From the NCBI GenBank assembly GCA_965178125.1, contig OZ237756.1, positions 980,269 to 1,000,268 on the forward strand: DNA of 20,000 nt. The letters run 5' to 3'. Positions within the stretch are counted from its first letter, which is position 1; every line of letters starts with the position of its first letter. The DNA comes from Bilabrum cf. latius. Its lineage: Eukaryota. A program made the position numbers and the translations under genes. The notes under the pieces are model-generated. The model saw only the letters and a program-made list of their open reading frames with translations, made no database searches and had not been told where the DNA came from. Positions 1-20,000 of this stretch are shown here, piece by piece.

Positions 1-1
1 A

Positions 2-1052
2 TCATTGCCACCCTTGTTCCCTTCTGAGAGACCTCGGATTCATATCCAAGCTCCTGATGGATACGGTCTTAGCCATCCAAATATTTCCCGTGGCATGGTT
101 GTAGGAATACGAGAGCTGGACAGCTGGAACATATCCAAGAGGCTAATTGGTAAGGTTTAGGCATCGGCAGCATGCTGTCGACTCATGTTATTGTCACAGC
201 CGCGATGAAACCCCCGATTTGCCTGTCGACTTCGCAGATGTCGTCCAAACTGTCTTTCGGATCATGTGCCAGGAACAGCCACCAAACGTGTTTCCCGCTG
301 CTGTGCATAGGTCCCCTCCGGGTTGGTTGGCCGCTCCAGCGCCTGCCCCTACCCCTGCCCCTGCCCCTGCCCCTGCCCCTGCCCCTGCCCCTGCCCCTGC
401 CCCTGCCCCTGCCCCTGCCCCTGCCCCTGCCCCTGCCTACCGCCCGATGCCGTCCACCAGCCGGTCTGTCCCCACGGGCCCCGTGCATATGCCCCCCTGT
501 CCAGATCGCTTTGTGGGCGTGGACAGCATGGAGCCTGCCGTGCTGCAGGTGCTAGCCGTGGATGAGGGAGAGGCGGACAGGACGGTGCACCGGCAGGAGC
601 CCGGGATCCGTGGGCTGCGAGACAGGCTCAAGGGGCTAGTGCAGGCCAACAGGGACATGGCCGGTCGGCTGGTATAGGGGGCAGATGGACCCTCGGGGCA
701 CAGGGTCCGGCGAGAAACCCTCGAGTCTCAACTGGCGGTGCGCCAGGTAGAGGGGGCCCAGCTGGAGGAGAGGCTCAAAGCGGCGCTGCGCAAGAGGGAC
801 CAGGCAGGCGCGGGGCAGGGGGGTGATGCCGCTGCGCTGAGTGCCAAACTTGGGCGCCTGGAGGAATAGGCGGGGGATGAACTGGATGTAGCTCGCGAGG
901 AACTGGTCGATGGGGCTTGGGAGAGCGGGGATGGAAATCGACGGCAGGCCATCAGCAAGGTGTGCGACAGGATCCTGGCCGCTGCCACCCGCAGGGCCGA
1001 GATGCACGGGAAGAGGCTGCTGCTGGATGCGTTTGGACTTGCCACCGAATGA
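2..1052 (+). CDS. VPS37: ESCRT-I subunit, VPS37(A)-like (UEV-like N-terminus, Pro/Ala linker, coiled-coil C-terminus); 5' partial; exons <2-149 and 238-1052
   Basis: Manual translation of exon 1 gives SLPPLFPSERPRIHIQAPDGYGLSHPNISRGMVVGIRELDSWNISKRLI. A GTAAGG...TTCGCAG intron (150-237) joins it in frame to DVVQTVFRIMCQEQPP, resembling the VPS37A UEV-like domain. PPCPDRFVGVDSMEPAVLQVLAVDE and the C-terminal helices resemble the Mod(r) region. The frame passes through TAG at 675-677 and 867-869 and ends at TGA 1050-1052. Family call is from recalled motifs, not a search. Confidence 0.65.
150..237 (+). other. Spliceosomal GT-AG intron (88 bp)
   Basis: G|GTAAGG donor and TTCGCAG| acceptor. Removing it fuses two frames into a continuous UEV-like sequence. 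Confidence 0.7.
342..437 (+). repeat. (CCCCTG)n hexamer microsatellite encoding a Pro-Ala linker
   Basis: About 15 tandem CCCCTG copies, read as (PA)n in the VPS37 frame. Confidence 0.95.
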
Positions 1053-1245
1053 TCGGCTGCAACAGATATACGTGTAGGACGCCACTCACTCGTCATGCGG
1101 CCAACTGATTGTCGGCCTGACCGAGCGACACAAAAATTTAGCCCGCGCCACATCTACTCGGAGCCTCAGGAAATCCACGTGCTCGAAAGACGCCTTCCAA
1201 GGCTCCCAATCAGGTGTGTTTGGAATGGCATTCTAAGCATTAAAT

Positions 1246-3114: not shown

Positions 3115-3220
3115 CCTTGGCGATGGTGCTGTACAGCAGATTGCCGTGGATACGTCTAGCGAGTAAATCAACTAAATCTTCGACTTGACTGAAAGTACGC
3201 GTTTCGATCTCTCCAGGTCA

Positions 3221-5167
3221 TTACGCGAGCTCGCACTTGCCACTGATGAGCAGCTGCAGCAGCTACTTCTTGTTCACCTTTCCCATAGCGTTGCGGGGAA
3301 TTTCTTCGACCCAAACAACTGCTCGGGGGCTCTTGTACGGAGCCATCTGCCCCAGGGCCCACTCCTGCACCTCCTGGGCGCTTGCATTTGTGCTAACTGG
3401 GGCCCGCACCGCTAGGGCAAGCACCGTCTCACCCATGCCTCTAGCCTCCAGTGCGGCGATGGCATGCCCACACGGTTCCAGCCCGCTACTGTCCCACTTG
3501 TCTCGCAGAGCCTATCGCACAGCTGCTGCATCTTCGTCTGGAATCCCGAGCACTGACACATCGCCGACAGCCTCGTGGTCCAGCATAACCGTCTCGGCCT
3601 CGAGCGCCGACACCTTGTACCCTCCTACCTTAATGATGTCCGCCGATGCACGCCCCAAGATGCGCCAGCGACCCTTCAAATCCCGCGCCACCATATCACC
3701 GGTCTGGAACCACCTTGGGACCGCTTGCACCTGCTCCTGCGACATGGCGCGCTGTGCCGCCGGGCCATTGACACCCTCATAGGCAACCGTGCCAGCGGGC
3801 AGCTGCGACCCCTTCTTGAAGGCCTCTGCAGTCGCCTCTTCCCTGCGCCAATAGTGATCAAACACGCTGGGCCCAGCAAGCCACAGTTCCCCGGTCACTC
3901 CCCCCTCTTCCCCATCCCCATGCTGCACATCCTGCGGTCTTGCCTCGCGGTCAGGAGCCACTGCCGCCATCACCCCCGGCAGCGGCCAGCCCACCGACCC
4001 GAGCACCCTGCCTTCCTCGGGCTCGAATGGATTGGACAGCGCCATGCCCACCTCCGTCATGCCATACCTCTCTAGCAGGCGGCCGCCCGTGCGCTGAGTC
4101 CACGCCCGGCCAAGGGCTGCTGGCAGTGGCGCTGATCCACTGAAGCACTACACTGCTGGGCTACGACCCCGGACATGCTCTTCTTTCAGCACATTCCCCG
4201 TCTACTGCAAGAGCTTGTGGTACATGGCTGGCACTGCCATGAAGCGCGTGGGGGTGCACTGCACTGCAGGTGCATTGTCCTCCTGCCCTGTCAAAGCGCT
4301 CCACACCGTGTCCGGAGAGAACTTGCCCCTGCGCATGTCCACAGTGGCCCCCGCCCACATGGCGCACTGCAATCCGTTGATCAGTCCGTGCACGTGGTGC
4401 AAGGGCAGTGTGTGCAGCACGATGTCGCTGGGTTGCCACTGCCAGGCGTCCACCAGGGTGGAGGTCATGGCATCCAGGGAGGCATGTGTATGTACGACGC
4501 CCTTTGGTCGACTGGTTGTGCCAGAGGTGAATATCATGAGTGCCCCGCTGCCAGATTGCGCAACATGATCCGGCAAATCGTCATGTAGCGGGCGGGCGCT
4601 TACATGTGCAGCGTGCTGCTTATTCCACTGCCGCACTGACACATGCTTCGCATGCAGGTTTCGGGCAAGATCCTTGGCTTCATTGTAGCTGTTGCTAAGA
4701 TCAAGAATGATTCCACTGCCCGAAGAAATTGAGGTCGTGGATGCAACTGTGCTCACCGGCACTGGAAGATTCAGATCCCAAACTCGGCTTGCAAGGGAAC
4801 TGCTGCAGATAACCATAGCAGGATCTGATGTTGTTATCGCATACCCCAACTCAGATTGTGGGTGGGAGTCACACAGTGGGACTACCATAGCGCCAGCTTG
4901 CCAAACTGCCCACTGCGCTGCAACGAAGTCATACCCAGTTGCCAAAACACATACTCTTGGTGTCGCCTGCGCTGACATTTGTTCACTCTTCTTGATTCTA
5001 AGGTACTAGCTGATCTCTACGGCAAGCTGCGCCGAATCAGCTCCCAAGTGCTAGTAAGTAAAGGCATGGGTACGATCCAAATCAAGAATAGCTATTCTCT
5101 CCGGTGAATGCACCTGAGACAGTTTAAAGACAGTAGACATAGGTCTTGCTGGTGATTTGCAGAACAT
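3221..5167 (-). CDS. ACSF3: Malonate-CoA ligase / acyl-CoA synthetase family member 3-like (AMP-binding enzyme), about 650 aa if TAG is read as sense
   Basis: One frame contains IFTSGTTSRPKGVVHTH, LHTLPLHHVHGL, FMAVPAMY, SGSAPLP, LLERYGMTEVGMALSNP, WFQTGD, ILGRASADIIKVGGYKVSALE and MAPYKSPR...IPRNAMGKVNKK. It is interrupted by six TAG codons (5051, 5006, 4202, 4148, 3512, 3263) and ends TAA TGA at 3223-3218. The start is uncertain: ATG 5167, ATG 5140, or ATG 5253 with a GTGAGT...CTGACTAG intron at 5245-5190. Confidence 0.88.
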
Positions 5168-5597
5168 ACCATGTCGTTCTGCAGAATATCTAGTCAGGTG
5201 AGAGCATCGTCCGAACCGCCCGCTGCGATGCAAACAGCAACTCACAATTGCATGTATATTCGAGTACAGCAGAAATCAGTCACGTCTACCTATAACCTTA
5301 CTCTACTCACGCTTTAGAGATAGCTCGAAGCATACAAAATTTGTGTACGTGTAGCTGACGCACCTGCATAAATGTAGATCTAGGAGGCACCATGAGTGGT
5401 GGCTCCGGATCCGAACGCACACGGACCTACCTAACTTGATAGATCGACGTGCAATACTAATTTGGTACTGTAAAGTCATGCTATTGCTTAACACAATCTC
5501 ATATATCGTGCCCACAAGGCGCCAGCGGCACCCTCCAAACCTCATCCGTGGCGCTCTCGTCTAGCCTCCGGTACATGTTCGTGAGGCCAAGGATAAT

Positions 5598-6477
5598 GGG
5601 TTTAGGGTTAGGGTTAGGGTTAGGGTTAGGGTTAGGGTTAGGGTTAGGGTTAGGGTTAGGGTTAGGGTTAGGGTTAGGGTTAGGGTTAGGGTTAGGGTTA
5701 GGGTTAGGGTTAGGGTTAGGGTTAGGGTTAGGGTTAGGGTTAGGGTTAGGGTTAGGGTTAGGGTTAGGGTTAGGGTTAGGGTTAGGGTTAGGGTTAGGGT
5801 TAGGGTTAGGGTTAGGGTTAGGGTTAGGGTTAGGGTTAGGGTTAGGGTTAGGGTTAGGGTTAGGGTTAGGGTTAGGGTTAGGGTTAGGGTTAGGGTTAGG
5901 GTTAGGGTTAGGGTTAGGGTTAGGGTTAGGGTTAGGGTTAGGGTTAGGGTTAGGGTTAGGGTTAGGGTTAGGGTTAGGGTTAGGGTTAGGGTTAGGGTTA
6001 GGGTTAGGGTTAGGGTTAGGGTTAGGGTTAGGGTTAGGGTTAGGGTTAGGGTTAGGGTTAGGGTTAGGGTTAGGGTTAGGGTTAGGGTTAGGGTTAGGGT
6101 TAGGGTTAGGGTTAGGGTTAGGGTTAGGGTTAGGGTTAGGGTTAGGGTTAGGGTTAGGGTTAGGGTTAGGGTTAGGGTTAGGGTTAGGGTTAGGGTTAGG
6201 GTTAGGGTTAGGGTTAGGGTTAGGGTTAGGGTTAGGGTTAGGGTTAGGGTTAGGGTTAGGGTTAGGGTTAGGGTTAGGGTTAGGGTTAGGGTTAGGGTTA
6301 GGGTTAGGGTTAGGGTTAGGGTTAGGGTTAGGGTTAGGGTTAGGGTTAGGGTTAGGGTTAGGGTTAGGGTTAGGGTTAGGGTTAGGGTTAGGGTTAGGGT
6401 TAGGGTTAGGGTTAGGGTTAGGGTTAGGGTTAGGGTTAGGGTTAGGGTTAGGGTTAGGGTTAGGGTTAGGGTTAGGG
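5598..6477 (+). repeat. Telomeric (TTAGGG)n tract 1, about 146 copies
   Basis: Perfect TTAGGG array; the first unit reads GGG-TTTAGGG. Confidence 0.99.
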
Positions 6478-6540
6478 TATCTAATATAAAGTCAGGGACA
6501 GGGTCGGGGAAAAAATATTTTCATCTTCAATATTTGTCGA

Positions 6541-7613
6541 AAAACGACGTGCTACGATCTCGGTAACTACAGGTGATATGAAGACCGTTCAAACTGCATC
6601 GGGACGGCCTGGGGGCACAACATGGGCCAAATGTTCCCCAGGTTCCGTTCTGGCCGCGTGGCGCCGATATGGGTGTATGAAGAATTTCACACCGAAAAAC
6701 GACGTGCTACGATCTCGGCAACTACAGGTGATATGAAGACCGTTCAAACTGCATCGGGACGGCCTGGGGGCACAACATGGGCCAAATGTTCCCCAGGTTC
6801 CGTTCTGGCCGCGCGGCGCCGATATGGGTGTATGAAGAATTTCACACCGAAAAACGACGTGCTACGATCTCGGCAACTACAGGTGATATGAAGACCGTTC
6901 AAACTGCATCGGGACGGCCTGGGGGCACAACATGGGCCAAATGTTCCCCAGGTTCCGTTCTGGCCGCGCGGCGCCGATATGGGTGTATGAAGAATTTCAC
7001 ACCGAAAAACGACGTGCTACGATCTCGGCAACTACAGGTGATATGAAGACCGTTCAAACTGCATCGGGACGGCCTGGGGGCACAACATGGGCCAAATGTT
7101 CCCCAGGTTCCGTTCTGGCCGCGCGGCGCCGATATGGGTGTATGAAGAATTTCACACCGAAAAACGACGTGCTACGATCTCGGCAACTACAGGTGATATG
7201 AAGACCGTTCAAACTGCATCGGGACGGCCTGGGGGCACAACATGGGCCAAATGTTCCCCAGGTTCCGTTCTGGCCGCGCGGCGCCGATATGGGTGTATGA
7301 AGAATTTCACACCGAAAAACGACGTGCTACGATCTCGGCAACTACAGGTGATATGAAGACCGTTCAAACTGCATCGGGACGGCCTGGGGGCACAACATGG
7401 GCCAAATGTTCCCCAGGTTCCGTTCTGGCCGCGCGGCGCCGATATGGGTGTATGAAGAATTTCACACCGAAAAACGACGTGCTACGATCTCGGCAACTAC
7501 AGGTGATATGAAGACCGTTCAAACTGCATCGGGACGGCCTGGGAGCACAACATGGGCCAAATGTTCCCCAGGTTCCGTTCTGGCCGCGCGGCGCCGATAT
7601 GGGTGTATGAAGA
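6541..7613 (+). repeat. 155-bp tandem satellite, subfamily A
   Basis: Near-identical monomers AAAACGACGTGCTACGATCTCGGCAACTACAGG... with a 155-bp period. Confidence 0.97.
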
Positions 7614-7865
7614 TTTGCATGTTTATTCAATATGCATGGTTTATCTGTCAATTGTAGAATGGGTATGGTGTACATGACAGTTGTATTTGCTGTGTGGATT
7701 GCTTTGATCTAAGGTATTAACTGGTTGACACGTCAAGACTCAACAGAATGCCTCCCGGCTCCTAATGCTGCGTCCGAATGGGTCAATGGCAGACACTTTG
7801 GCAAACTCCTCTCACAAGCTGGCCCAGCTGCCACTGACCTCAATTGCCGTCCCCCTGCCTGCCTC

Positions 7866-8009
7866 TCACTCGTCACCGAAAGCTGCTAGGAGCGCTTCCA
7901 CAGCGTCGACGTCTGCCGCATTGAGATCTCCTTTCGCCGTCTTCTCGAGGGCCGTCATCAGGTTTGCGAACATTTCCAACTCGCGGTCCCTCTCTTCAAT
8001 TGTTGCCTC
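7866..8009 (-). pseudogene. Possible 5'-truncated coding fragment (47 codons plus TGA) in the element tail
   Basis: EATIEERDRELEMFANLMTALEKTAKGDLNAADVDAVEALLAAFGDE* has a helical, protein-like composition and is cut off by the telomeric tract. No family recognised. Confidence 0.4.
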
Positions 8010-8010
8010 G

Positions 8011-8407
8011 GTTTAGGTTAGGGTTAGGGTTAGGGTTAGGGTTAGGGTTAGGGTTAGGGTTAGGGTTAGGGTTAGGGTTAGGGTTAGGGTTAGGGTTAGG
8101 GTTAGGGTTAGGGTTAGGGTTAGGGTTAGGGTTAGGGTTAGGGTTAGGGTTAGGGTTAGGGTTAGGGTTAGGGTTAGGGTTAGGGTTAGGGTTAGGGTTA
8201 GGGTTAGGGTTAGGGTTAGGGTTAGGGTTAGGGTTAGGGTTAGGGTTAGGGTTAGGGTTAGGGTTAGGGTTAGGGTTAGGGTTAGGGTTAGGGTTAGGGT
8301 TAGGGTTAGGGTTAGGGTTAGGGTTAGGGTTAGGGTTAGGGTTAGGGTTAGGGTTAGGGTTAGGGTTAGGGTTAGGGTTAGGGTTAGGGTTAGGGTTAGG
8401 GTTAGGG
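8011..8407 (+). repeat. Telomeric tract 2
   Basis: (TTAGGG)n with a variant GTTTAGG start. Confidence 0.98.
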
Positions 8408-9717
8408 TATCTAATATAAAGTCAGGGACAGGGTCGGGGAAAAAAAAATTTCATCTTCACTTTTTGTCGAAAAAATGCGCGCGACGATCTCGGCAACCAG
8501 ATGAGATATGAGGACCGTTCAAACTGCATCGGGACGGCCTGGGGGTACAATGTTGGGCAAATGTTCCCCAGGTTCCGTTTATACCGCGCGGCGACAATAT
8601 GGCTGGACGAAGATTGTCATGCAGAAAAAATGCGCGCGACGATCTCGGCAACCAGATGAGATATGAAGACCGTTCAAACTGCATCGGGACGGCCTGGGGG
8701 TACAATGTGGGGCAAATGTTCCCCAGGTTCCGTTTTGACCGCGCGGCGACAATATGGCTGGACAAAGATTGTCATGCAGAAAAAATGCGCGCGACGATCT
8801 CGGCAACCAGATGAGATATGAAGACCGTTCAAACTGCATCGGGACGGCCTGGGACCACAACAGGGGGCAAATGTTCCCCAGGTTCCGTTTTGACCGCGCG
8901 GCGACAATATGGCTGGACGAAGATTGTCATGCAGAAAAAATGCGCGCGACGATCTCGGCAACCAGATGAGATATGAAGACCGTTCAAACTGCATCGGGAC
9001 GGCCTGGGGGTACAATGTGGGGCAAATGTTCCCCAGGTTCCGTTTTGACCGCGCGGCGACAATATGGCTGGACGAAGATTGTCATGCAGAAAAAATGCGC
9101 GCGACGATCTCGGCAACCAGATGAGATATGAAGACCGTTCAAACTGCATCGGGACGGCCTGGGGGTACAATGTGGGGCAAATGTTCCCCAGGTTCCGTTT
9201 TGACCGCGCGGCGACAATATGGCTGGACGAAGATTGTCATGCAGAAAAAATGCGCGCGACGATCTCGGCAACCAGATGAGATATGAAGACCGTTCAAACT
9301 GCATCGGGACGGCCTGGGGGTACAATGTGGGGCAAATGTTCCCCAGGTTCCGTTTTGACCGCGCGGCGACAATATGGCTGGACGAAGATTGTCATGCAGA
9401 AAAAATGCGCGCGACGATCTCGGCAACCAGATGAGATATGAAGACCGTTCAAACTGCATCGGGACGGCCTGGGGGTACAATGTGGGGCAAATGTTCCCCA
9501 GGTTCCGTTTTGACCGCGCGGCGACAATATGGCTGGACGAAGATTGTCATGCAGAAAAAATGCGCGCGACGATCTCGGCAACCAGATGAGATATGAAGAC
9601 CGTTCAAACTGCATCGGGACGGCCTGGGGGTACAATGTGGGGCAAATGTTCCCCAGGTTCCGTTTTGACCGCGCGGCGACAATATGGCTGGACGAAGATT
9701 GTCATGCAGAAAAAATG
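8408..9717. mobile_element. Element copy 2 (subfamily B): head and 8 x 155-bp monomers, truncated within the array
   Basis: Same head; monomers AAAAATGCGCGCGACGATCTCGGCAACCAGATGAG... span 8471-9710; ends AAAAATG|GGTTAGGG. Confidence 0.6.
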
Positions 9718-9820
9718 GGTAGGGTTAGGGTTAGGGTTAGGGTTAGGGTTAGGGTTAGGGTTAGGGTTAGGGTTAGGGTTAGGGTTAGGGTTAGGGTTAG
9801 GGTTAGGGTTAGGGTTAGGG
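9718..9820 (+). repeat. Telomeric tract 3
   Basis: About 17 TTAGGG copies. Confidence 0.98.
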
Positions 9821-10815
9821 TATCTAATATAAAGTCAGGGACAGGGTCGGGGAAAAAATATTTTCATCTTCACTTTTTGTCGAAAAAATACAACATAGGA
9901 TCTCGGCAACCACAGGAGATATGAAGACCGTTGAAACGGCATTAGGACCGCCTAGGGGCACAACATGGGGCAAATGCTCCCCAGGTTCCGTTTTTGTCGC
10001 GCGGCGCCGATATGGATCGATGAAGATTTACATGCTGCAAAAATACAACATAGGATCTCGGCAACCACAGGAGATATGAAGACCGTTGAAACGGCATTAG
10101 GACCGCCTAGGGGCACAACATGGGGCAAATGTTCCCCAGGTTCCGTTTTTGTCGCGCGGCGCCGATATGGATCGATGAAGATTTACATGCTGCAAAAATA
10201 CAACATAGGATCTCGGCAACCACAGGAGATATGAAGACCGTTGAAACGGCATTAGGACCGCCTAGGGGCACAACATGGGGCAAATGTTCCCCAGGTTCCG
10301 TTTTTGTCGCGCGGTGCCGATATGGATCGATGAAGATTTACATGCTGCAAAAATACAACATAGGATTTCGGCAACCACAGGAGATATGAAGACCGTTGAA
10401 ACGGCATTAGGACCGCCTAGGGGCACAACATGGGGCAAATGTTCCCCAGGTTCCGTTTTTGTCGCGCGGTGCCGATATGGATCGATGAAGATTTACATGC
10501 TGCAAAAATACAACATAGGATCTCGGCAACCACAGGAGATATGAAGACCGTTGAAACGGCATTAGGACCGCCTGGGGGCACAACATGGGGCAAATGTTCC
10601 CCAGGTTCCGTTTTTGTCGCGCGGCGCCGATATGGATCGATGAAGATTTACATGCTGCAAAAATACAACATAGGATCTCGGCAACCACAGGAGATATGAA
10701 GACCGTTGAAACGGCATTAGGACCGCCTAGGGGCACAACATGGGGCAAATGTTCCCCAGGTTCCGTTTTTGTCGCGCGGCGCCGATATGGATCGATGAAG
10801 ATTTACATGCTGCAA
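9821..10815. mobile_element. Element copy 3 (subfamily C): head and 6 x 155-bp monomers
   Basis: Monomers AAAATACAACATAGGATCTCGGCAACCACAGGAG...; ends at GCTGCAA followed by G10. Confidence 0.6.
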
Positions 10816-11126
10816 GGGGGGGGGGTTAAGGGTTAGGGTTAGGGTTAGGGTTAGGGTTAGGGTTAGGGTTAGGGTTAGGGTTAGGGTTAGGGTTAGGGTT
10901 AGGGTTAGGGTTAGGGTTAGGGTTAGGGTTAGGGTTAGGGTTAGGGTTAGGGTTAGGGTTAGGGTTAGGGTTAGGGTTAGGGTTAGGGTTAGGGTTAGGG
11001 TTAGGGTTAGGGTTAGGGTTAGGGTTAGGGTTAGGGTTAGGGTTAGGGTTAGGGTTAGGGTTAGGGTTAGGGTTAGGGTTAGGGTTAGGGTTAGGGTTAG
11101 GGTTAGGGTTAGGGTTAGGGTTAGGG
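10816..11126 (+). repeat. Telomeric tract 4: G10-TTAAGGG-(TTAGGG)n, 311 bp
   Basis: Read directly from the sequence. Confidence 0.97.
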
Positions 11127-12121
11127 TATCTAATATAAAGTCAGGGACAGGGTCGGGGAAAAAATATTTTCATCTTCACTTTTTGTCGAAAAAATACAAC
11201 ATAGGATCTCGGCAACCACAGGAGATATGAAGACCGTTGAAACGGCATTAGGACCGCCTAGGGGCACAACATGGGGCAAATGCTCCCCAGGTTCCGTTTT
11301 TGTCGCGCGGCGCCGATATGGATCGATGAAGATTTACATGCTGCAAAAATACAACATAGGATCTCGGCAACCACAGGAGATATGAAGACCGTTGAAACGG
11401 CATTAGGACCGCCTAGGGGCACAACATGGGGCAAATGTTCCCCAGGTTCCGTTTTTGTCGCGCGGCGCCGATATGGATCGATGAAGATTTACATGCTGCA
11501 AAAATACAACATAGGATCTCGGCAACCACAGGAGATATGAAGACCGTTGAAACGGCATTAGGACCGCCTAGGGGCACAACATGGGGCAAATGTTCCCCAG
11601 GTTCCGTTTTTGTCGCGCGGTGCCGATATGGATCGATGAAGATTTACATGCTGCAAAAATACAACATAGGATTTCGGCAACCACAGGAGATATGAAGACC
11701 GTTGAAACGGCATTAGGACCGCCTAGGGGCACAACATGGGGCAAATGTTCCCCAGGTTCCGTTTTTGTCGCGCGGTGCCGATATGGATCGATGAAGATTT
11801 ACATGCTGCAAAAATACAACATAGGATCTCGGCAACCACAGGAGATATGAAGACCGTTGAAACGGCATTAGGACCGCCTGGGGGCACAACATGGGGCAAA
11901 TGTTCCCCAGGTTCCGTTTTTGTCGCGCGGCGCCGATATGGATCGATGAAGATTTACATGCTGCAAAAATACAACATAGGATCTCGGCAACCACAGGAGA
12001 TATGAAGACCGTTGAAACGGCATTAGGACCGCCTAGGGGCACAACATGGGGCAAATGTTCCCCAGGTTCCGTTTTTGTCGCGCGGCGCCGATATGGATCG
12101 ATGAAGATTTACATGCTGCAA
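11127..12121. mobile_element. Element copy 4 (subfamily C), duplicate of copy 3
   Basis: Offset 1306 bp with the same diagnostic variants (ATGCTCCCC in monomer 1, GATTTCGG, CCTGGGGG). Confidence 0.6.
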
Positions 12122-12432
12122 GGGGGGGGGGTTAAGGGTTAGGGTTAGGGTTAGGGTTAGGGTTAGGGTTAGGGTTAGGGTTAGGGTTAGGGTTAGGGTT
12201 AGGGTTAGGGTTAGGGTTAGGGTTAGGGTTAGGGTTAGGGTTAGGGTTAGGGTTAGGGTTAGGGTTAGGGTTAGGGTTAGGGTTAGGGTTAGGGTTAGGG
12301 TTAGGGTTAGGGTTAGGGTTAGGGTTAGGGTTAGGGTTAGGGTTAGGGTTAGGGTTAGGGTTAGGGTTAGGGTTAGGGTTAGGGTTAGGGTTAGGGTTAG
12401 GGTTAGGGTTAGGGTTAGGGTTAGGGTTAGGG
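12122..12432 (+). repeat. Telomeric tract 5 (311 bp, same as tract 4)
   Basis: Same G10-TTAAGGG start and same length as tract 4. Confidence 0.97.
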
Positions 12433-13427
12433 TATCTAATATAAAGTCAGGGACAGGGTCGGGGAAAAAATATTTTCATCTTCACTTTTTGTCGAAAAAA
12501 TACAACATAGGATCTCGGCAACCACAGGAGATATGAAGACCGTTGAAACGGCATTAGGACCGCCTAGGGGCACAACATGGGGCAAATGCTCCCCAGGTTC
12601 CGTTTTTGTCGCGCGGCGCCGATATGGATCGATGAAGATTTACATGCTGCAAAAATACAACATAGGATCTCGGCAACCACAGGAGATATGAAGACCGTTG
12701 AAACGGCATTAGGACCGCCTAGGGGCACAACATGGGGCAAATGTTCCCCAGGTTCCGTTTTTGTCGCGCGGCGCCGATATGGATCGATGAAGATTTACAT
12801 GCTGCAAAAATACAACATAGGATCTCGGCAACCACAGGAGATATGAAGACCGTTGAAACGGCATTAGGACCGCCTAGGGGCACAACATGGGGCAAATGTT
12901 CCCCAGGTTCCGTTTTTGTCGCGCGGTGCCGATATGGATCGATGAAGATTTACATGCTGCAAAAATACAACATAGGATTTCGGCAACCACAGGAGATATG
13001 AAGACCGTTGAAACGGCATTAGGACCGCCTAGGGGCACAACATGGGGCAAATGTTCCCCAGGTTCCGTTTTTGTCGCGCGGTGCCGATATGGATCGATGA
13101 AGATTTACATGCTGCAAAAATACAACATAGGATCTCGGCAACCACAGGAGATATGAAGACCGTTGAAACGGCATTAGGACCGCCTGGGGGCACAACATGG
13201 GGCAAATGTTCCCCAGGTTCCGTTTTTGTCGCGCGGCGCCGATATGGATCGATGAAGATTTACATGCTGCAAAAATACAACATAGGATCTCGGCAACCAC
13301 AGGAGATATGAAGACCGTTGAAACGGCATTAGGACCGCCTAGGGGCACAACATGGGGCAAATGTTCCCCAGGTTCCGTTTTTGTCGCGCGGCGCCGATAT
13401 GGATCGATGAAGATTTACATGCTGCAA
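12433..13427. mobile_element. Element copy 5 (subfamily C), duplicate of copies 3 and 4
   Basis: Offset 1306 bp with the same variants. Confidence 0.6.
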
Positions 13428-13636
13428 GGGGGGGGGGTTAAGGGTTAGGGTTAGGGTTAGGGTTAGGGTTAGGGTTAGGGTTAGGGTTAGGGTTAGGGTT
13501 AGGGTTAGGGTTAGGGTTAGGGTTAGGGTTAGGGTTAGGGTTAGGGTTAGGGTTAGGGTTAGGGTTAGGGTTAGGGTTAGGGTTAGGGTTAGGGTTAGGG
13601 TTAGGGTTAGGGTTAGGGTTAGGGTTAGGGTTAGGG
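13428..13636 (+). repeat. Telomeric tract 6 (209 bp)
   Basis: G10-TTAAGGG start; 102 bp shorter than tracts 4 and 5. Confidence 0.97.
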
Positions 13637-14410
13637 TATCTAATATAAAGTCAGGGACAGGGTCGGGGAAAAAATATTTTCATCTTCAATATTTGTCGAA
13701 AAACGACGTGCTACGATCTCGGCAACTACAGGTGATATGAAGACCGTTCAAACTGCATCGGGACGGCCTGGGGGCACAACATGGGCCAAATGTTCCCCAG
13801 GTTCCGTTCTGGCCGCGCGGCGCCGATATGGGTGTATGAAGAATTTCACACCGAAAAACGACGTGCTACGATCTCGGCAACTACAGGTGATATGAAGACC
13901 GTTCAAACTGCATCGGGACGGCCTGGGGGCACAACATGGGCCAAATGTTCCCCAGGTTCCGTTCTGGCCGCGCGGCGCCGATATGGGTGTATGAAGAATT
14001 TCACACCGAAAAACGACGTGCTACGATCTCGGCAACTACAGGTGATATGAAGACCGTTCAAACTGCATCGGGACGGCCTGGGGGCACAACATGGGCCAAA
14101 TGTTCCCCAGGTTCCGTTCTGGCCGCGCGGCGCCGATATGGGTGTATGAAGAATTTCACACCGAAAAACGACGTGCTACGATCTCGGCAACTACAGGTGA
14201 TATGAAGACCGTTCAAACTGCATCGGGACGGCCTGGGGGCACAACATGGGCCAAATATTCCCCAGGTTCCGTTCTGGCCGCGCGGCGCTGATATGGGTGT
14301 ATGAAGATTTGCATGTCTATTCAATATGCATGGTTTATCTGTCAATTGTAGAATGGGGATGGTGTACATGACAGTTGTATTTGCTGTGTGGATTGCTTTG
14401 ATCTAAGGTA
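13637..14410. mobile_element. Element copy 6 (subfamily A): head, about 4 monomers, about 100-bp tail
   Basis: The tail matches the copy 1 tail but is truncated at AAGGTATTA|GGG. Confidence 0.6.
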
Positions 14411-14662
14411 TTAGGGTTAAGGTTAGGGTTAGGGTTAGGGTTAGGGTTAGGGTTAGGGTTAGGGTTAGGGTTAGGGTTAGGGTTAGGGTTAGGGTTAGGG
14501 TTAGGGTTAGGGTTAGGGTTAGGGTTAGGGTTAGGGTTAGGGTTAGGGTTAGGGTTAGGGTTAGGGTTAGGGTTAGGGTTAGGGTTAGGGTTAGGGTTAG
14601 GGTTAGGGTTAGGGTTAGGGTTAGGGTTAGGGTTAGGGTTAGGGTTAGGGTTAGGGTTAGGG
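14411..14662 (+). repeat. Telomeric tract 7 (252 bp)
   Basis: TTAGGG-TTAAGG-(TTAGGG)n. Confidence 0.97.
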
Positions 14663-16417
14663 TATCTAATATAAAGTCAGGGACAGGGTCGGGGAAAAAA
14701 AATTTTCATCTTCACTTTTTGTCGAAAAAATGCGCGCGACGATCTCGGCAACCAGATGAGATATGAGGACCGTTCAAACTGCATCGGGACGGCCTGGGGG
14801 TACAATGTGGGGCAAATGTTCCCCAGGTTCCGTTTTGACCGCGCGGCGACAATATGGCTGGACGAAGATTGTCATGCAGAAAAAATGCGCGCAACGATCT
14901 CGGCAACCAGATGAGATATGAAGACTGTTCAAACTGCATCGGGACGGCCTGGGGGTACAATGTTAGGCAAATGTTCCCCAGGTTCCGTTTATACCGCGCG
15001 GCGACAATATGGCTGGACGAAGATTGTCATGCAGAAAAAATGCGCGCGACGATCTCGGCAACCAGATGAGATATGAAGACCGTTCAAACTGCATCGGGAC
15101 GGCCTGGGACCACAACTGGGGGCAAATGTTCCCCAGGTTCCGTTTATACCGCGCGGCGACAATATGGCTGGACGAAGATTGTCATGCAGAAAAAATGCGC
15201 GCGGCGATCTCGGCAACCAGATGAGATATGAAGACCGTTCAAACTGCATCGGGACGGCCTGGGACCACAACTGGGGGCAAATGTTCCCCAGGTTCCGTTT
15301 ATACCGCGCGGCGACAATATGGCTGGACGAAGATTGTCATGCAGAAAAAATGCGCGCGACGATCTCGGCAACCAGATGAGATATGAAGACCGTTCATACT
15401 GCATCGGGACGGCCTGGGGGTACAATGTGGGGCAAATGTTCCCCAGATTCCGTTTTGACCGCGCGGCGACAGTATGGGGGGACGAAGATTTTCAGGCAGA
15501 AAAAATGCGCGCGGCGATCTCGGCAACCACAGGAGATATGAAGACCGTTCAAACTGCATCGGGACGGCCTGGGACCACAACTGGGGGCAAATGTTCCCCA
15601 GGTTCCGTTTATACCGCGCGGCGACAATATGGCTGGACGAAGATTGTCATGCAGAAAAAATGCGCGCGGCGATCTCGGCAACCAGATGAGATATGAAGAC
15701 CGTTCAAACTGCATCGGGACGGCCTGGGACCACAACTGGGGGCAAATGTTCCCCAGGTTCCGTTTATTCCGCGCGGCGACAATATGGCTGGACGAAGATT
15801 GTCATGCAGAAAAAATGCGCGCGACGATCTCGGCAACCAGATGAGATATGAAGACCGTTCATACTGCATCGGGACGGCCTGGGGGTACAATGTGGGGCAA
15901 ATGTTCCCCAGATTCCGTTTTGACCGCGCGGCGACAGTATGGGGGGACGAAGATTTTCAGGCAGAAAAAATGCGCGCGGCGATCTCGGCAACCACAGGAG
16001 ATATGAAGACCGTTCAAACTGCATCGGGACGGCCTGGGACCACAACAGGGGGCAAATGTTCCCCAGGTTCCGTTTATACCGCGCGGCGACAGTATGGTGG
16101 GACGAAGATTGTCATGCAGAAAAAATGCGCGCGGCGATCTCGGCAACCAGATGAGATATGAAGACCGTTCAAACTGCATCGGGACGGCCTGGGACCACAA
16201 CTGGGGGCAAATGTTCCCCGTGATTCTATTACATCAAGCATTGCAAGTATGGGGTTTGCACACCTACATGGTTGGGTTTGCATACGTACATGGGTTCGGG
16301 TTAGGTAAGAGGTTTTCCTTAGGGGCGTTCATTAGCTGTAAATGAGATTTCTTGATTTCAGCCGTTCATTCGCACTTTGAGTCATCATCATGTGTCATGT
16401 GTGCGAAGTTTGGAGAA
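14663..16417. mobile_element. Element copy 7 (subfamily B variant): head, about 9.6 monomers, about 200-bp unique tail
   Basis: Monomers 14726-16219; tail 16220-16417 differs from the subfamily A tail. Confidence 0.6.
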
Positions 16418-16806
16418 TAGGGTTAGGGTTAGGGTTAGGGTTAGGGTTAGGGTTAGGGTTAGGGTTAGGGTTAGGGTTAGGGTTAGGGTTAGGGTTAGGG
16501 TTAGGGTTAGGGTTAGGGTTAGGGTTAGGGTTAGGGTTAGGGTTAGGGTTAGGGTTAGGGTTAGGGTTAGGGTTAGGGTTAGGGTTAGGGTTAGGGTTAG
16601 GGTTAGGGTTAGGGTTAGGGTTAGGGTTAGGGTTAGGGTTAGGGTTAGGGTTAGGGTTAGGGTTAGGGTTAGGGTTAGGGTTAGGGTTAGGGTTAGGGTT
16701 AGGGTTAGGGTTAGGGTTAGGGTTAGGGTTAGGGTTAGGGTTAGGGTTAGGGTTAGGGTTAGGGTTAGGGTTAGGGTTAGGGTTAGGGTTAGGGTTAGGG
16801 TTAGGG
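16418..16806 (+). repeat. Telomeric tract 8
   Basis: (TTAGGG)n. Confidence 0.98.
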
Positions 16807-17580
16807 TATCTAATATAAAGTCAGGGACAGGGTCGGGGAAAAAATATTTTCATCTTCAATATTTGTCGAAAAACGACGTGCTACGATCTCGGCAACTACA
16901 GGTGATATGAAGACCGTTCAAACTGCATCGGGACGGCCTGGGGGCACAACATGGGCCAAATGTTCCCCAGGTTCCGTTCTGGCCGCGCGGCGCCGATATG
17001 GGTGTATGAAGAATTTCACACCGAAAAACGACGTGCTACGATCTCGGCAACTACAGGTGATATGAAGACCGTTCAAACTGCATCGGGACGGCCTGGGGGC
17101 ACAACATGGGCCAAATGTTCCCCAGGTTCCGTTCTGGCCGCGCGGCGCCGATATGGGTGTATGAAGAATTTCACACCGAAAAACGACGTGCTACGATCTC
17201 GGCAACTACAGGTGATATGAAGACCGTTCAAACTGCATCGGGACGGCCTGGGGGCACAACATGGGCCAAATGTTCCCCAGGTTCCGTTCTGGCCGCGCGG
17301 CGCCGATATGGGTGTATGAAGAATTTCACACCGAAAAACGACGTGCTACGATCTCGGCAACTACAGGTGATATGAAGACCGTTCAAACTGCATCGGGACG
17401 GCCTGGGGGCACAACATGGGCCAAATATTCCCCAGGTTCCGTTCTGGCCGCGCGGCGCTGATATGGGTGTATGAAGATTTGCATGTCTATTCAATATGCA
17501 TGGTTTATCTGTCAATTGTAGAATGGGGATGGTGTACATGACAGTTGTATTTGCTGTGTGGATTGCTTTGATCTAAGGTA
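16807..17580. mobile_element. Element copy 8 (subfamily A), duplicate of copy 6
   Basis: Offset 3170 bp with the same variants and truncation point. Confidence 0.6.
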
Positions 17581-17832
17581 TTAGGGTTAAGGTTAGGGTT
17601 AGGGTTAGGGTTAGGGTTAGGGTTAGGGTTAGGGTTAGGGTTAGGGTTAGGGTTAGGGTTAGGGTTAGGGTTAGGGTTAGGGTTAGGGTTAGGGTTAGGG
17701 TTAGGGTTAGGGTTAGGGTTAGGGTTAGGGTTAGGGTTAGGGTTAGGGTTAGGGTTAGGGTTAGGGTTAGGGTTAGGGTTAGGGTTAGGGTTAGGGTTAG
17801 GGTTAGGGTTAGGGTTAGGGTTAGGGTTAGGG
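17581..17832 (+). repeat. Telomeric tract 9 (252 bp, same as tract 7)
   Basis: Same TTAAGG variant and same length as tract 7. Confidence 0.97.
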
Positions 17833-19587
17833 TATCTAATATAAAGTCAGGGACAGGGTCGGGGAAAAAAAATTTTCATCTTCACTTTTTGTCGAAAAAA
17901 TGCGCGCGACGATCTCGGCAACCAGATGAGATATGAGGACCGTTCAAACTGCATCGGGACGGCCTGGGGGTACAATGTGGGGCAAATGTTCCCCAGGTTC
18001 CGTTTTGACCGCGCGGCGACAATATGGCTGGACGAAGATTGTCATGCAGAAAAAATGCGCGCAACGATCTCGGCAACCAGATGAGATATGAAGACTGTTC
18101 AAACTGCATCGGGACGGCCTGGGGGTACAATGTTAGGCAAATGTTCCCCAGGTTCCGTTTATACCGCGCGGCGACAATATGGCTGGACGAAGATTGTCAT
18201 GCAGAAAAAATGCGCGCGACGATCTCGGCAACCAGATGAGATATGAAGACCGTTCAAACTGCATCGGGACGGCCTGGGACCACAACTGGGGGCAAATGTT
18301 CCCCAGGTTCCGTTTATACCGCGCGGCGACAATATGGCTGGACGAAGATTGTCATGCAGAAAAAATGCGCGCGGCGATCTCGGCAACCAGATGAGATATG
18401 AAGACCGTTCAAACTGCATCGGGACGGCCTGGGACCACAACTGGGGGCAAATGTTCCCCAGGTTCCGTTTATACCGCGCGGCGACAATATGGCTGGACGA
18501 AGATTGTCATGCAGAAAAAATGCGCGCGGCGATCTCGGCAACCAGATGAGATATGAAGACCGTTCATACTGCATCGGGACGGCCTGGGGGTACAATGTGG
18601 GGCAAATGTTCCCCAGATTCCGTTTTGACCGCGCGGCGACAGTATGGGGGGACGAAGATTTTCAGGCAGAAAAAATGCGCGCGGCGATCTCGGCAACCAC
18701 AGGAGATATGAAGACCGTTCAAACTGCATCGGGACGGCCTGGGACCACAACTGGGGGCAAATGTTCCCCAGGTTCCGTTTATACCGCGCGGCGACAATAT
18801 GGCTGGACGAAGATTGTCATGCAGAAAAAATGCGCGCGGCGATCTCGGCAACCAGATGAGATATGAAGACCGTTCAAACTGCATCGGGACGGCCTGGGAC
18901 CACAACTGGGGGCAAATGTTCCCCAGGTTCCGTTTATTCCGCGCGGCGACAATATGGCTGGACGAAGATTGTCATGCAGAAAAAATGCGCGCGACGATCT
19001 CGGCAACCAGATGAGATATGAAGACCGTTCATACTGCATCGGGACGGCCTGGGGGTACAATGTGGGGCAAATGTTCCCCAGATTCCGTTTTGACCGCGCG
19101 GCGACAGTATGGGGGGACGAAGATTTTCAGGCAGAAAAAATGCGCGCGGCGATCTCGGCAACCACAGGAGATATGAAGACCGTTCAAACTGCATCGGGAC
19201 GGCCTGGGACCACAACAGGGGGCAAATGTTCCCCAGGTTCCGTTTATACCGCGCGGCGACAGTATGGTGGGACGAAGATTGTCATGCAGAAAAAATGCGC
19301 GCGGCGATCTCGGCAACCAGATGAGATATGAAGACCGTTCAAACTGCATCGGGACGGCCTGGGACCACAACTGGGGGCAAATGTTCCCCGTGATTCTATT
19401 ACATCAAGCATTGCAAGTATGGGGTTTGCACACCTACATGGTTGGGTTTGCATACGTACATGGGTTCGGGTTAGGTAAGAGGTTTTCCTTAGGGGCGTTC
19501 ATTAGCTGTAAATGAGATTTCTTGATTTCAGCCGTTCATTCGCACTTTGAGTCATCATCATGTGTCATGTGTGCGAAGTTTGGAGAA
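17833..19587. mobile_element. Element copy 9 (subfamily B variant), duplicate of copy 7
   Basis: Offset 3170 bp; one substitution noticed (A15359 vs G18529). Confidence 0.6.
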
Positions 19588-19875
19588 TAGGGTTAGGGGT
19601 TAGGGTTAGGGTTAGGGTTAGGGTTAGGGTTAGGGTTAGGGTTAGGGTTAGGGTTAGGGTTAGGGTTAGGGTTAGGGTTAGGGTTAGGGTTAGGGTTAGG
19701 GTTAGGGTTAGGGTTAGGGTTAGGGTTAGGGTTAGGGTTAGGGTTAGGGTTAGGGTTAGGGTTAGGGTTAGGGTTAGGGTTAGGGTTAGGGTTAGGGTTA
19801 GGGTTAGGGTTAGGGTTAGGGTTAGGGTTAGGGTTAGGGTTAGGGTTAGGGTTAGGGTTAGGGTTAGGGTTAGGG
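19588..19875 (+). repeat. Telomeric tract 10
   Basis: (TTAGGG)n with one TTAGGGG near the start. Confidence 0.97.
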
Positions 19876-19916
19876 TATCTAATATAAAGTCAGGGACAGG
19901 GTCGGGGAAAAAATAT
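19876..19916. mobile_element. Element copy 10: head only (about 41 bp)
   Basis: TATCTAATATAAAGTCAGGGACAGGGTCGGGGAAAAAATATTT followed by AGGGTTAGGG. Confidence 0.6.
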
Positions 19917-20000
19917 TTAGGTTAGGGTTAGGGTTAGGGTTAGGGTTAGGGTTAGGGTTAGGGTTAGGGTTAGGGTTAGGGTTAGGGTTAGGGTTAGGGT
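19917..20000 (+). repeat. Telomeric tract 11 (runs off the window; possibly terminal)
   Basis: (TTAGGG)n to the window end. Confidence 0.97.

What the first reader, a model, noticed from the sequence alone, without database searches (positions are those of the whole stretch)
6478..19916. Telomere-inserted element family with one fixed end and variable, telomere-capped opposite ends
Seen: ten inserts in one orientation (starts 6478, 8408, 9821, 11127, 12433, 13637, 14663, 16807, 17833, 19876), all with the junction TTAGGG|TATCTAATATAAAGTCAGGGACAGGGTCGGGG. Three diverged subfamilies share the head, while the distal ends stop at six different points (41 bp to 1.75 kb). Established: a conserved proximal end with truncated, telomere-capped distal ends is the pattern of terminal retrotransposition primed on the G-strand 3' end (endonuclease-deficient Penelope-like Athena/Coprina, HeT-A/TART; MoTeR also targets telomere repeats). 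Inference: the minus strand would be the RNA, ending ...TATATTAGAT-ACCCTAA, which could anneal to the overhang. The element appears to coexist with telomerase-type repeats. No enzyme is encoded here, so the mechanism is unproven.
Basis: partly seen in the sequence, partly recalled or inferred. Interest (0 to 1): 0.85.

Follow-up and report, generated by a model that had tools for sequence, protein, structure and literature searches.

The report
Telomere interrupted by truncated repeat elements
One chromosome end of an unidentified microbial eukaryote carries a telomere in which pure TTAGGG stretches alternate with ten copies of a satellite-filled element that always starts at the same base and stops at different points, a layout known from a few organisms whose chromosome ends are extended by mobile elements or by copying between ends.

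Summary
The head occurs 10 times exactly (0 expected by chance), always on the + strand. Each time it follows a perfect TTAGGG tract in the same phase, and the bodies stop at six different points.

- The bodies are arrays of a 155-bp satellite (4-10 units) behind a 60-bp head.
- Four of the ten inserts are exact segmental duplicates that include their telomere tracts ([C+tract] x3, [A+tract+B+tract] x2). Only six junctions are independent, and DNA-level copying clearly acts here.

Further findings:
- The elements encode no enzyme and contain no hammerhead ribozyme.
- Contigs of another public run continue past the A-type truncation point into non-telomeric DNA, so longer copies exist.
- These longer copies keep a minus-strand reading frame open that runs towards the head.
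- The distal junctions begin with irregular repeats, as does the junction at the end of the unique DNA. This looks like new telomere synthesis.

Best reading (0.45): a telomere-specific retroelement-like family attaches 3'-end-first to G-strand ends, is 5'-truncated, is recapped by telomerase, and is then amplified by recombination. The main rival (0.35) is purely DNA-templated copying, as with yeast Y' or C. elegans TALT. RNA versus DNA templating could not be tested because no genome or RNA data were available. It is a new variant of a known kind and of moderate interest.

The parts
3221..5275 (-). Last chromosomal gene before the telomere: a malonyl-CoA synthetase-like AMP-binding enzyme. 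It is intact only if six in-frame TAG codons are read as sense.
   Evidence: Pfam AMP-binding E 5.7e-56. Best relatives are 39% identical.
5599..6477 (+). First telomere tract. One irregular repeat (TTTAGGG) comes first, then (TTAGGG)146. It is joined directly to unique DNA about 330 bp from the gene, which looks like a healed terminal deletion.
6478..8009 (+). Element A1: head 6478-6537, 155-bp satellite x6.9 at 6538-7613, unique tail 7614-8009. It is truncated after 8009 and capped by GGTTTAGG followed by perfect repeats.
   Evidence: The truncation point is fixed by a contig of run X5 that matches up to 8009 and then continues with non-telomeric letters.
7866..8012 (-). End of a reading frame (48 codons plus TGA) that runs towards the head and is cut by the telomere cap. 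It stays open in longer copies and paralogues.
   Evidence: Loose ends were read by eye. No Pfam or sequence relative was found.
8010..8407 (+). Telomere tract: irregular start, then (TTAGGG)65.
8408..9717 (+). Element B1: head plus 8 satellite units. It is truncated inside the satellite and capped by GGTAGGG followed by (TTAGGG)16 up to 9820.
9821..13636 (+). Three copies of [element C (995 bp: head plus 6 units, truncated in the satellite), G10-TTAAGGG, telomere tract]. Copies start at 9821, 11127 and 12433. The elements are 100% identical and the tracts are 294, 294 and 192 bp.
13637..19875 (+). Two copies of [element A2 (777 bp), 240-bp tract, element B2 (1755 bp, 10 units plus a 198-bp tail), tract of 384 or 276 bp]. 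Copies start at 13637 and 16807. A2 and A3 are identical. B2 and B3 differ at 1 of 1760 positions and by one extra G at the cap.
19876..19918 (+). Element S: only the first 41-43 bases of the head, capped by telomere repeats that run to the end of the window.

Best explanation
This is a mosaic telomere built in three steps.

(1) Attachment. A telomere-specific, retroelement-like family is copied onto the G-strand 3' end, starting from its own 3' end. The family consists of the head, a 155-base repeat array that acts as a 3' untranslated region, and, in longer copies, a reading frame on the minus strand. The template RNA would be the minus strand. It would run on into the C-rich repeats of the tract proximal to its source copy, so it can pair with any G-rich overhang. 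Pairing of this kind would reproduce the TTAGGG|TATC junction in phase. Copies in this window are truncated and non-coding, so any enzyme must act in trans.

(2) Truncation and recapping. Copying often stops early (5' truncation), or the new end erodes. Telomerase then starts a new tract on the non-telomeric 3' end, with a faulty first repeat or two.

(3) DNA-level duplication. Whole blocks of element plus tract are then duplicated at the DNA level (D-loop or break-induced replication, or a rolling circle), which gives the exact 3x and 2x repeats.

Shown: the anatomy, the fixed phase, the six different ends, the irregular caps, the exact duplicates, and the existence of longer copies. Inferred: the RNA template, priming on the overhang, the action of telomerase, and the enzyme.
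For: - All ten copies have one orientation, with the fixed end towards the centromere and the variable end towards the tip.
- The six independent junctions share one of six possible repeat phases. If the junctions had formed independently without pairing, this would have a chance of about (1/6)^5. That points to a template paired with the telomere and argues against end-joining.
- 6 of 6 independent units are truncated, each at a different point: 3 in the head or satellite and 3 in tails. A further satellite-to-TTAGGG junction at 7542 appears in one contig of run X1.
- 5 of 6 distal junctions have an irregular first or second repeat, and so does the junction at the end of the unique DNA. The B2 cap has no clear fault, though its duplicate B3 carries one extra G. 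Every repeat after that is perfect, which suggests the caps were newly made on non-telomeric ends.
- Longer copies exist. A 285-base contig of run X5 matches 7819-8009 with 0 differences and then continues for 94 non-telomeric bases.
- The 30 extra letters shown, read by eye, add ten sense codons to the minus-strand frame.
- A paralogue in X5 carries an 18-base in-frame insertion just before the same last two codons and TGA (by eye).
- The frame runs towards the head, as expected if the head is the 3' end of the RNA.
- Head bases 1-32 are identical across subfamilies whose first units differ by 10-39% per block.
- Subfamilies A and B share the head and satellite but have unrelated tails. This resembles an autonomous and non-autonomous pair sharing a 3' module, as with MoTeR1 and MoTeR2 (PMC7367193 passages).
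- The same mixture of features is documented for MoTeR arrays: 5' end distal, truncated copies recapped by new telomere formation, and exact duplicates with identical internal tracts attributed to D-loop extension or rolling circle.
Against: - No reverse transcriptase was found. The longest non-telomeric frame in the elements is 155 codons, and none of the 10 frames scanned reached a Pfam cut-off.
- No Rfam family, hammerhead ribozymes included, matches the window at E up to 1.
- There is no poly(A) at the fixed junction.
- 4 of 10 copies are certainly DNA-level duplicates. DNA copying alone could explain the fixed junction by inheritance.
- The body is a satellite. Its word depth in run X1 is 100 to 1000 times that of the tail (the tool warns this is not a copy number), which would also fit an ordinary telomere-associated satellite.
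- Two paralogous pieces of the frame differ from the window by 7 and 10 of 30 bases, almost all changing the amino acid (by eye). Coding under purifying selection is therefore not shown.
- No RNA data for this organism were available.
Confidence: 0.45

Rival explanations
1. DNA-only recombination, as with yeast Y' or C. elegans TALT. Long ago a module (head, satellite, distal gene) came to lie distal to an internal TTAGGG tract. Since then, telomere 3' ends invade such internal tracts on other ends or on the sister chromatid and copy outwards by break-induced replication. Terminal breaks inside the module are healed by telomerase. Repeated rounds build the array. No RNA step or reverse transcriptase other than telomerase is needed.
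For: - Exact duplicates include telomere tracts of equal length (294 and 294 bp; 240 and 240 bp) and identical odd caps.
- The fixed junction and its phase follow simply from inheritance.
- The body is a satellite with very high word depth.
- The window contains no enzyme or ribozyme.
- Modules flanked by telomere tracts in one orientation are known to be copied in tandem onto chromosome ends (TALT, PMC4595603 passages; Y' elements, abstract start of PMC11042809 in the listing).
- In MoTeR arrays, break-induced replication was inferred from the same kind of shared truncation points.
Against: - It needs at least six separate breaks inside modules, each healed, in the history of one 13-kb array, yet no full-length unit is present.
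- According to the MoTeR study, breaks favour the internal telomere tracts rather than the element bodies, and truncations are 'relatively rare'.
- It gives no reason for the frame to point towards the head.
- The exact identity of the first 32 bases across diverged subfamilies would need gene conversion next to the invaded tract.
- The first TTAGGG|head junction still requires an event that put foreign DNA onto a telomere in phase.
Confidence: 0.35
2. Endonuclease-driven, site-specific insertion into existing internal telomere tracts, as with SART/TRAS or the model proposed for MoTeR and FoTeR, rather than addition at the very end. An element-encoded nuclease nicks the G strand at a fixed place in TTAGGG. 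Reverse transcription starts there, and the 5' end is joined back to the same tract.
For: - The junction phase is fixed and the orientation is single.
- Telomere repeats lie on both sides of every copy.
- Telomere-targeted non-LTR families of this kind are listed in PMC10088271 (passages) and described for FoTeR (sections 17 and 19 of PMC12857005).
Against: - The tracts are otherwise perfect, yet 5 of 6 distal junctions begin with faulty repeats (TTTAGG, TTAAGG, G10-TTAAGGG, GGTAGGG). A pre-existing tract would not contain these.
- The junction of the unique DNA to the telomere shows the same kind of fault, which indicates new synthesis at a free end.
- No nuclease or reverse transcriptase was seen.
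- There is no poly(A).
Confidence: 0.08
3. Assembly artefact: the alternating array, or at least its exact 3x and 2x repeats, was produced by the assembler from repetitive long reads.
For: - The block copies are perfect. The B2/B3 difference includes a G-run length change, which is typical of read error.
- No read that spans the array could be examined, because only contigs of runs were available.
Against: - The junction types are real in independent data. Run X1 holds a contig that crosses 7935-8009 and runs 54 bases beyond. Another X1 contig shows a satellite-to-TTAGGG junction. Runs from three other studies hold the 155-base unit-to-unit joint.
- Runs from 6 studies hold 0.21-0.75 of the sampled words of 6400-8100. 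The best holder may be the source sample.
- Six different, internally consistent junctions are not what a collapse or expansion produces.
Confidence: 0.05

Closest known systems
Endonuclease-deficient Penelope-like elements (Athena, Coprina)
   Same: - They sit at chromosome ends in one orientation.
- They attach to G-rich overhangs.
- They carry telomere-like C-rich stretches near the 3' end (as described in passages of PMC8557442). The head here has three variant hexamers 14 bases from the junction.
- They coexist with telomerase repeats.
- Recalled, not read here (the 2007 paper is not held): their 5'-truncated copies are capped by telomere repeats.
   Different: - No PLE reverse transcriptase is seen here and there is no hammerhead motif.
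- The C-rich hexamers are degenerate and not terminal.
- The body is a 155-bp tandem satellite.
MoTeR1/MoTeR2 arrays of the blast fungus (and FoTeR of Fusarium)
   Same: - They occur in a TTAGGG telomere.
- The 5' ends face the tip.
- Truncated copies are recapped by new telomere formation.
- Array growth includes exact duplicates with identical internal tracts, attributed to D-loop or break-induced replication or a rolling circle.
- A non-autonomous partner shares the element ends.
- Tandem repeats lie inside the elements (PMC7367193 passages; PMC12857005 sections 17 and 19).
   Different: - MoTeR carries variant repeats at the 5' (distal) end and encodes a reverse transcriptase. Here the variant hexamers are at the fixed proximal end and no enzyme is seen.
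- Internal tracts are 16-146 repeats here, against about 1-18 in MoTeR arrays.
- Truncated copies are the rule here, whereas they are relatively rare there.
Yeast Y' elements and C. elegans TALT (recombinational telomere templates)
   Same: - A module is bounded by telomere tracts in one orientation.
- It is copied in tandem onto chromosome ends by recombination.
- Copies are exact, with equal spacer tracts (PMC4595603 passages).
   Different: - Y' and TALT units are uniform and full length, and they amplify when telomerase is missing.
- Here six different truncated units lie side by side, each recapped with long perfect tracts.
HeT-A/TART/TAHRE of Drosophila
   Same: Elements are added end-on, 3' end towards the centromere, and are often 5'-truncated (abstract start of PMC5537684 in the listing; details recalled).
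   Different: Those elements have oligo(A) junctions, no telomerase repeats between copies, and coding bodies. None of this holds here.

Membership tests
EN-deficient Penelope-like elements (Athena/Coprina) | PLE-type reverse transcriptase ORF without a GIY-YIG endonuclease | tested here: inconclusive
   None of the 10 frames scanned from the elements reaches a Pfam cut-off, and the longest non-telomeric frame is 155 codons. All copies here are truncated and no genome is held, so full-length copies could not be read.
EN-deficient Penelope-like elements (Athena/Coprina) | Hammerhead ribozyme motif near the 3' end | tested here: not met
   An Rfam scan of all 20 kb on both strands found 0 matches at E up to 1.
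EN-deficient Penelope-like elements (Athena/Coprina) | [quoted passage not shown] | tested here: inconclusive
   On the + strand the head holds TCAGGG ACAGGG TCGGGG, 14 bases from the junction. Each hexamer matches TTAGGG at 4-5 of 6 positions. They are degenerate and not terminal.
EN-deficient Penelope-like elements (Athena/Coprina) | Terminal location, single orientation, 5'-truncated copies capped by telomere repeats | tested here: met
MoTeR/FoTeR telomere-targeted non-LTR elements | Reverse transcriptase with a restriction-like endonuclease (feature recalled) | tested here: inconclusive
   No domain was found in the truncated copies. Full-length copies were not available.
MoTeR/FoTeR telomere-targeted non-LTR elements | Variant telomere-like repeats at the 5' (distal) end of intact copies | tested here: not met
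   The distal ends here are truncation points with one or two faulty repeats. The variant hexamers lie at the proximal fixed end (compare).
HeT-A/TART-type terminal non-LTR elements | Oligo(A) at the centromere-side junction, with no telomerase repeats between copies | tested here: not met
   The junction is TTAGGG|TATCTAAT with no A run. 16-146 TTAGGG repeats lie between copies.
Y'/TALT-type recombinational templates | Unit flanked by same-orientation telomere tracts and present as exact tandem copies | tested here: met
   [C+tract] x3 and [A2+tract+B2+tract] x2 are identical apart from 1 mismatch.
Y'/TALT-type recombinational templates | Uniform full-length units, amplified when telomerase is absent | tested here: not met
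   There are six different truncated units and long perfect tracts. Telomerase status could not be tested.

The most novel reading that the evidence does not exclude
The chromosome ends of this organism may be built jointly by telomerase and a satellite-bodied terminal retroelement that needs no endonuclease. Its minus-strand RNA would run on into the C-rich repeats of the neighbouring tract and so carry its own primer-binding tail. Any G-overhang could then prime a copy in phase, and telomerase would recap each aborted copy. On this reading the abundant 155-bp satellite is mostly telomere-borne 3' ends of such copies, and mosaic arrays tens of kilobases long would be the normal telomere state in a lineage that also reads TAG as a sense codon.
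Probability: 0.3. Interest if true: 0.8.

Novelty: new variant of a known kind. Interest (0 to 1): 0.55.

Why it matters
Telomeres that mix telomerase repeats with end-specific elements are known from only a few lineages (rotifers, some fungi, silkworm, Giardia, a green alga). They bear on how telomerase and retroelements are related.

This case would add an unrelated microbial eukaryote with a reassigned stop codon, very long and perfectly pure internal tracts, and elements whose body is a satellite. It shows element addition, recapping and recombinational duplication side by side in one array.

If the template turns out to be DNA only, it would instead be a natural, telomerase-positive counterpart of the Y'/TALT survivors seen in laboratory mutants. 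Both outcomes are testable with the assembly and RNA data.

Tried and rejected
- **No genome held.** No genome is held for the window, so the head could not be counted genome-wide.
- **Earlier scan notes.** None by place, sequence or words.
- **Metagenome scans.** The head pattern gave 0 hits. A 21-base satellite core gave 2 loci, L001 and L002. Both are AT-rich contigs that match only those 21 bases, so they are chance hits.
- **Rfam.** 0 matches.
- **Consensus folds of the 155-base unit.** The + strand gave 2 of 43 pairs with a double change and a positive covariation term. The - strand gave 0 of 35. There is no support for a structured RNA.
- **The 48-residue frame end.**
  - The word-indexed searches for longer and for near-length proteins found none.
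  - The full HMMER search gave 2 hits, each with 6-8 scattered stretches and unrelated Pfam lines. I rejected them as low-complexity noise.
  - I did not use the protein atlas, structure prediction or complex prediction, because the fragment is too short.
- **Run cover.**
  - Runs X5 and X8 showed no cover of 7600-7800, and X6 none before 7738. A hole proves nothing.
  - For the same reason, the absence of a listed untruncated A-type contig in X1 is not used as evidence.
  - Runs X10-X20 hold only 0.05-0.06 of the words. I did not lay them. They probably share only telomere words, and no conclusion on habitat or expression is drawn.
- **TAG meaning.** In an alignment with 40 relatives, the six TAG columns are mixed. 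One is Arg in 40 of 40, one Tyr in 28 of 40, one Glu in 21 and Gln in 7 of 40, one is an insertion, and two are variable. Gln is therefore not shown.
- **Literature.**
  - Searches for a description of this array found nothing relevant: TTAGGG with stop-codon reassignment, TTAGGG with UAG and glutamine, and 155 bp with subtelomeric and TTAGGG. These searches cover only the held library.
  - The 2007 Athena paper and the 2017 Terminon paper are not held.
- **Helitron or HUH-type DNA transposon.** Rejected. No such domain is present, and the irregular telomere caps at variable ends do not fit cut-and-paste or rolling-circle insertion.

Full report
**1. What is in the window**

Bases 1-5598 are ordinary gene-dense DNA. 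The last gene (3221-5275, minus strand) is a malonyl-CoA synthetase-like AMP-binding enzyme. It gives an uninterrupted 684-codon frame only if six TAG codons are read as sense. It matches Pfam AMP-binding at E 5.7e-56, and its best relatives among 7723 hits are only 39% identical.

About 330 bp beyond this gene the unique DNA stops. After one irregular repeat (TTTAGGG), 146 perfect TTAGGG repeats follow. There is no subtelomeric buffer, so this looks like a healed terminal deletion (inference).

**2.

- The 32-base head occurs 10 times with no mismatch, all on the + strand, at the listed positions. None is expected by chance.
- 10 of 10 heads follow a perfect TTAGGG tract that ends on a complete hexamer.
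- The ten internal tracts total 3282 bp and contain no variant repeat. No C-rich tract lies on the + strand.

**3. Anatomy of the inserts**

Each insert is a 60-bp head followed by a 155-bp tandem satellite at exact 155-bp spacing. There are three subfamilies.

- A has 7 or 4 units followed by a unique tail.
- B has 8 or 10 units. The longer copy ends in a different tail, which leaves the unit at another position and is unrelated to the A tail.
- C has 6 units.

Between subfamilies, head bases 1-32 show 0 differences in every comparison. Head bases 33-60 differ at 1-4 of 28 positions. The blocks of the first unit differ by 10-39%. The unit also contains invariant blocks of up to 22 bases, so strong local conservation is not confined to the head.

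Bases 15-32 of the head are three variant telomere hexamers (TCAGGG ACAGGG TCGGGG), preceded by a 14-base AT-rich stretch that contains TATAAA.

**4. Only six junctions are independent**

- C1, C2 and C3 are identical over 1012 bp, including the odd cap G10-TTAAGGG. They are followed by tracts of 294, 294 and 192 bp.
- A2 and A3 are identical over 786 bp, each followed by a 240-bp tract.
- B2 and B3 differ at 1 of 1760 positions and by one G in the cap.

The array is therefore A1, B1, [C+tract]x3, [A2+tract+B2+tract]x2, S. Blocks that repeat an identical truncation point, an identical faulty cap and an equal tract length cannot be separate insertions each recapped afresh. They are DNA-level duplications, or, less simply, copies of a transcript that spans the whole block.

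The MoTeR study drew the same conclusion from identical internal tracts and proposed D-loop extension or a rolling circle (PMC7367193, passages).

**5. The distal junctions**

The unit-to-telomere junctions read as follows.

| Unit | Junction |
|---|---|
| A1 | ...GCCTC / GGTTTAGG, then perfect repeats |
| B1 | ...AAAATG / GGTAGGG, then perfect repeats |
| C | ...CTGCAA / G10 TTAAGGG, then perfect repeats |
| A2 | ...GGTATTA / GGG TTAAGG, then perfect repeats |
| B2 | ...GGAGAA / TAGGG, then perfect repeats |
| S | ...ATATTT / AGG, then perfect repeats |

Five of the six begin with a faulty repeat (the B2 cap has no clear fault), and so does the junction at 5598, while every later repeat is perfect. 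I read this as new synthesis on a non-telomeric 3' end, that is, telomerase healing (inference). It argues against insertion into a tract that already existed.

By contrast, the proximal junctions are perfect up to the head. All six independent ones share one of six possible phases, which is about (1/6)^5 if they had formed independently without pairing. The joining step therefore used a template paired with telomere repeats, or else the junction is inherited. Simple end-joining is excluded.

**6. Evidence from public runs**

Runs from 6 studies hold 0.21-0.75 of the sampled words of 6400-8100. The best holder may be the source sample. I laid 7440-8012 on four runs from four studies.

- All four hold the A-type unit. 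Three of them (X5, X6, X8) have one contig each that shows the 155-base unit-to-unit joint.
- In X5 a 285-base contig matches 7819-8009 with 0 differences and then continues for 94 bases that are not telomeric. This fixes the A1 truncation point at 8009 and shows that longer copies exist.
- In X1 one contig shows a further satellite-to-TTAGGG junction at 7542.
- Word depth in X1 is about 10^5-10^6 over the satellite bins, about 900-950 over 7620-7800, and 2,700-13,500 over 7800-7980. The tool warns that this is not a copy number. I take it only as a hint that the satellite, and a core of the tail, are much more repeated than the A1-specific parts.

**7. A reading frame pointing at the head**

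On the minus strand a frame of 48 codons ends with TGA at 7866-7868 and is cut by the telomere cap. I read the loose-end letters by eye against this frame.

- The X5 extension adds ten sense codons.
- An X5 paralogue that departs at 7874 carries an 18-base insertion in frame and keeps the last two codons and the TGA.
- Two other paralogous pieces (X1 at 7973, X5 at 7962) have no indel and stay open on the minus strand. One of them puts a TGA in the competing plus-strand frame.

This favours a real coding region that reads towards the head, so the satellite and head would be its 3' untranslated end. Against this, the two pieces differ from the window by 7 and 10 of 30 bases, nearly all of them changing the amino acid.

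The fragment has no recognisable relative. The rest of the elements holds no frame longer than 155 codons and no Pfam domain above cut-off in the 10 frames scanned. There is no Rfam match and no covariation in the unit.

**8. Mechanism**

Two models fit the anatomy.

*Model (a): a telomere-specific retroelement family.* It would be copied from a minus-strand RNA onto the G-strand 3' end, often aborted, recapped by telomerase, and then duplicated by recombination. In its favour:

- every independent unit is truncated at a different place;
- the frame has the expected polarity;
- the terminal 32 bases are identical across diverged subfamilies;
- A and B share a 3' module but have unrelated bodies;
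- the match to MoTeR arrays is close, and so is the match to the description of endonuclease-deficient Penelope-like elements.

*Model (b): a DNA-only process.* Telomere ends invade internal tracts and copy outwards, as with yeast Y' and C. elegans TALT, with breaks in the module healed by telomerase. In its favour:

- the duplicates are demonstrably DNA-level;
- the body is a satellite;
- no enzyme or ribozyme is present.

DNA-level copying is needed in either model to explain the 3x and 2x blocks. I put (a) at 0.45, (b) at 0.35, endonuclease-mediated insertion at 0.08 and an assembly artefact at 0.05. The template (RNA or DNA) could not be tested. No genome is held and no RNA run of this organism was found.

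**9. Membership**

The element cannot be filed under any named family.

- For Athena/Coprina, the hammerhead motif was tested and is absent, the reverse transcriptase was not seen, and the C-rich repeats are degenerate.
- For MoTeR, the 5' variant repeats are absent.
- For HeT-A/TART, oligo(A) is absent and telomerase repeats are present.
- For Y'/TALT, the units are neither uniform nor full length.

It works like these systems without being shown to belong to one.

**10. Verdict**

This is a genuine, non-random mosaic telomere. The main corrections are the satellite nature of the bodies and the recombinational duplication of four of the ten copies. It is a new variant of a known kind, with interest 0.55.

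I found no description of this array in the three literature searches listed under Tried and rejected, which cover only the held library.

Noticed in passing
window 147-5275: TAG is used as a sense codon: 6 times in the AMP-binding gene and 2 each in the frames 147-1052 and 1237-3114. No in-frame TAA or TGA occurs. In an alignment with 40 relatives, the six TAG columns do not point clearly to Gln: one is Arg in 40 of 40 and one is Tyr in 28 of 40.
   Followed up: partly
window 5276-5601: A housekeeping-type gene lies only about 330 bp from the first telomere tract. The unique DNA is joined to the telomere through one irregular repeat (TTTAGGG). This looks like a healed terminal deletion with no native subtelomere left.
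   Followed up: partly
window 342-437: A (CCTGCC)16 microsatellite lies inside the frame 147-1052, where it encodes a Pro-Ala run.
   Followed up: no
window 2841-2923: A 42-bp unit is repeated twice inside the frame 1237-3114. The only family hint for that frame is a below-cut-off L7Ae match.
   Followed up: no
window 16252-16302 and 19422-19472: A 22-bp unit is repeated 2.2 times inside the B-type tail.
   Followed up: no
window 16418-16440 versus 19588-19610: The two copies of the B2 block differ by one extra G in the second repeat of the cap (TTAGGG versus TTAGGGG) and by one base in 1760. This is either a mutation after duplication or a homopolymer read error.
   Followed up: no
window 7440-7600 (satellite unit): Contigs of runs filed under four different coded organism names, from four studies, carry the same 155-base unit with 0-1 differences. 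Word depth over the unit in run X1 is 100-1000 times that over the adjoining tail (not a copy number).
   Followed up: partly
window 6478-6537 and the first unit of each element: The first satellite unit after the head has position-specific variants shared by B1 and B2 (for example GAGG instead of GAAG). In all subfamilies it begins CGAAAAA, unlike the internal units of B and C. The arrays are therefore ordered and not homogenised.
   Followed up: no
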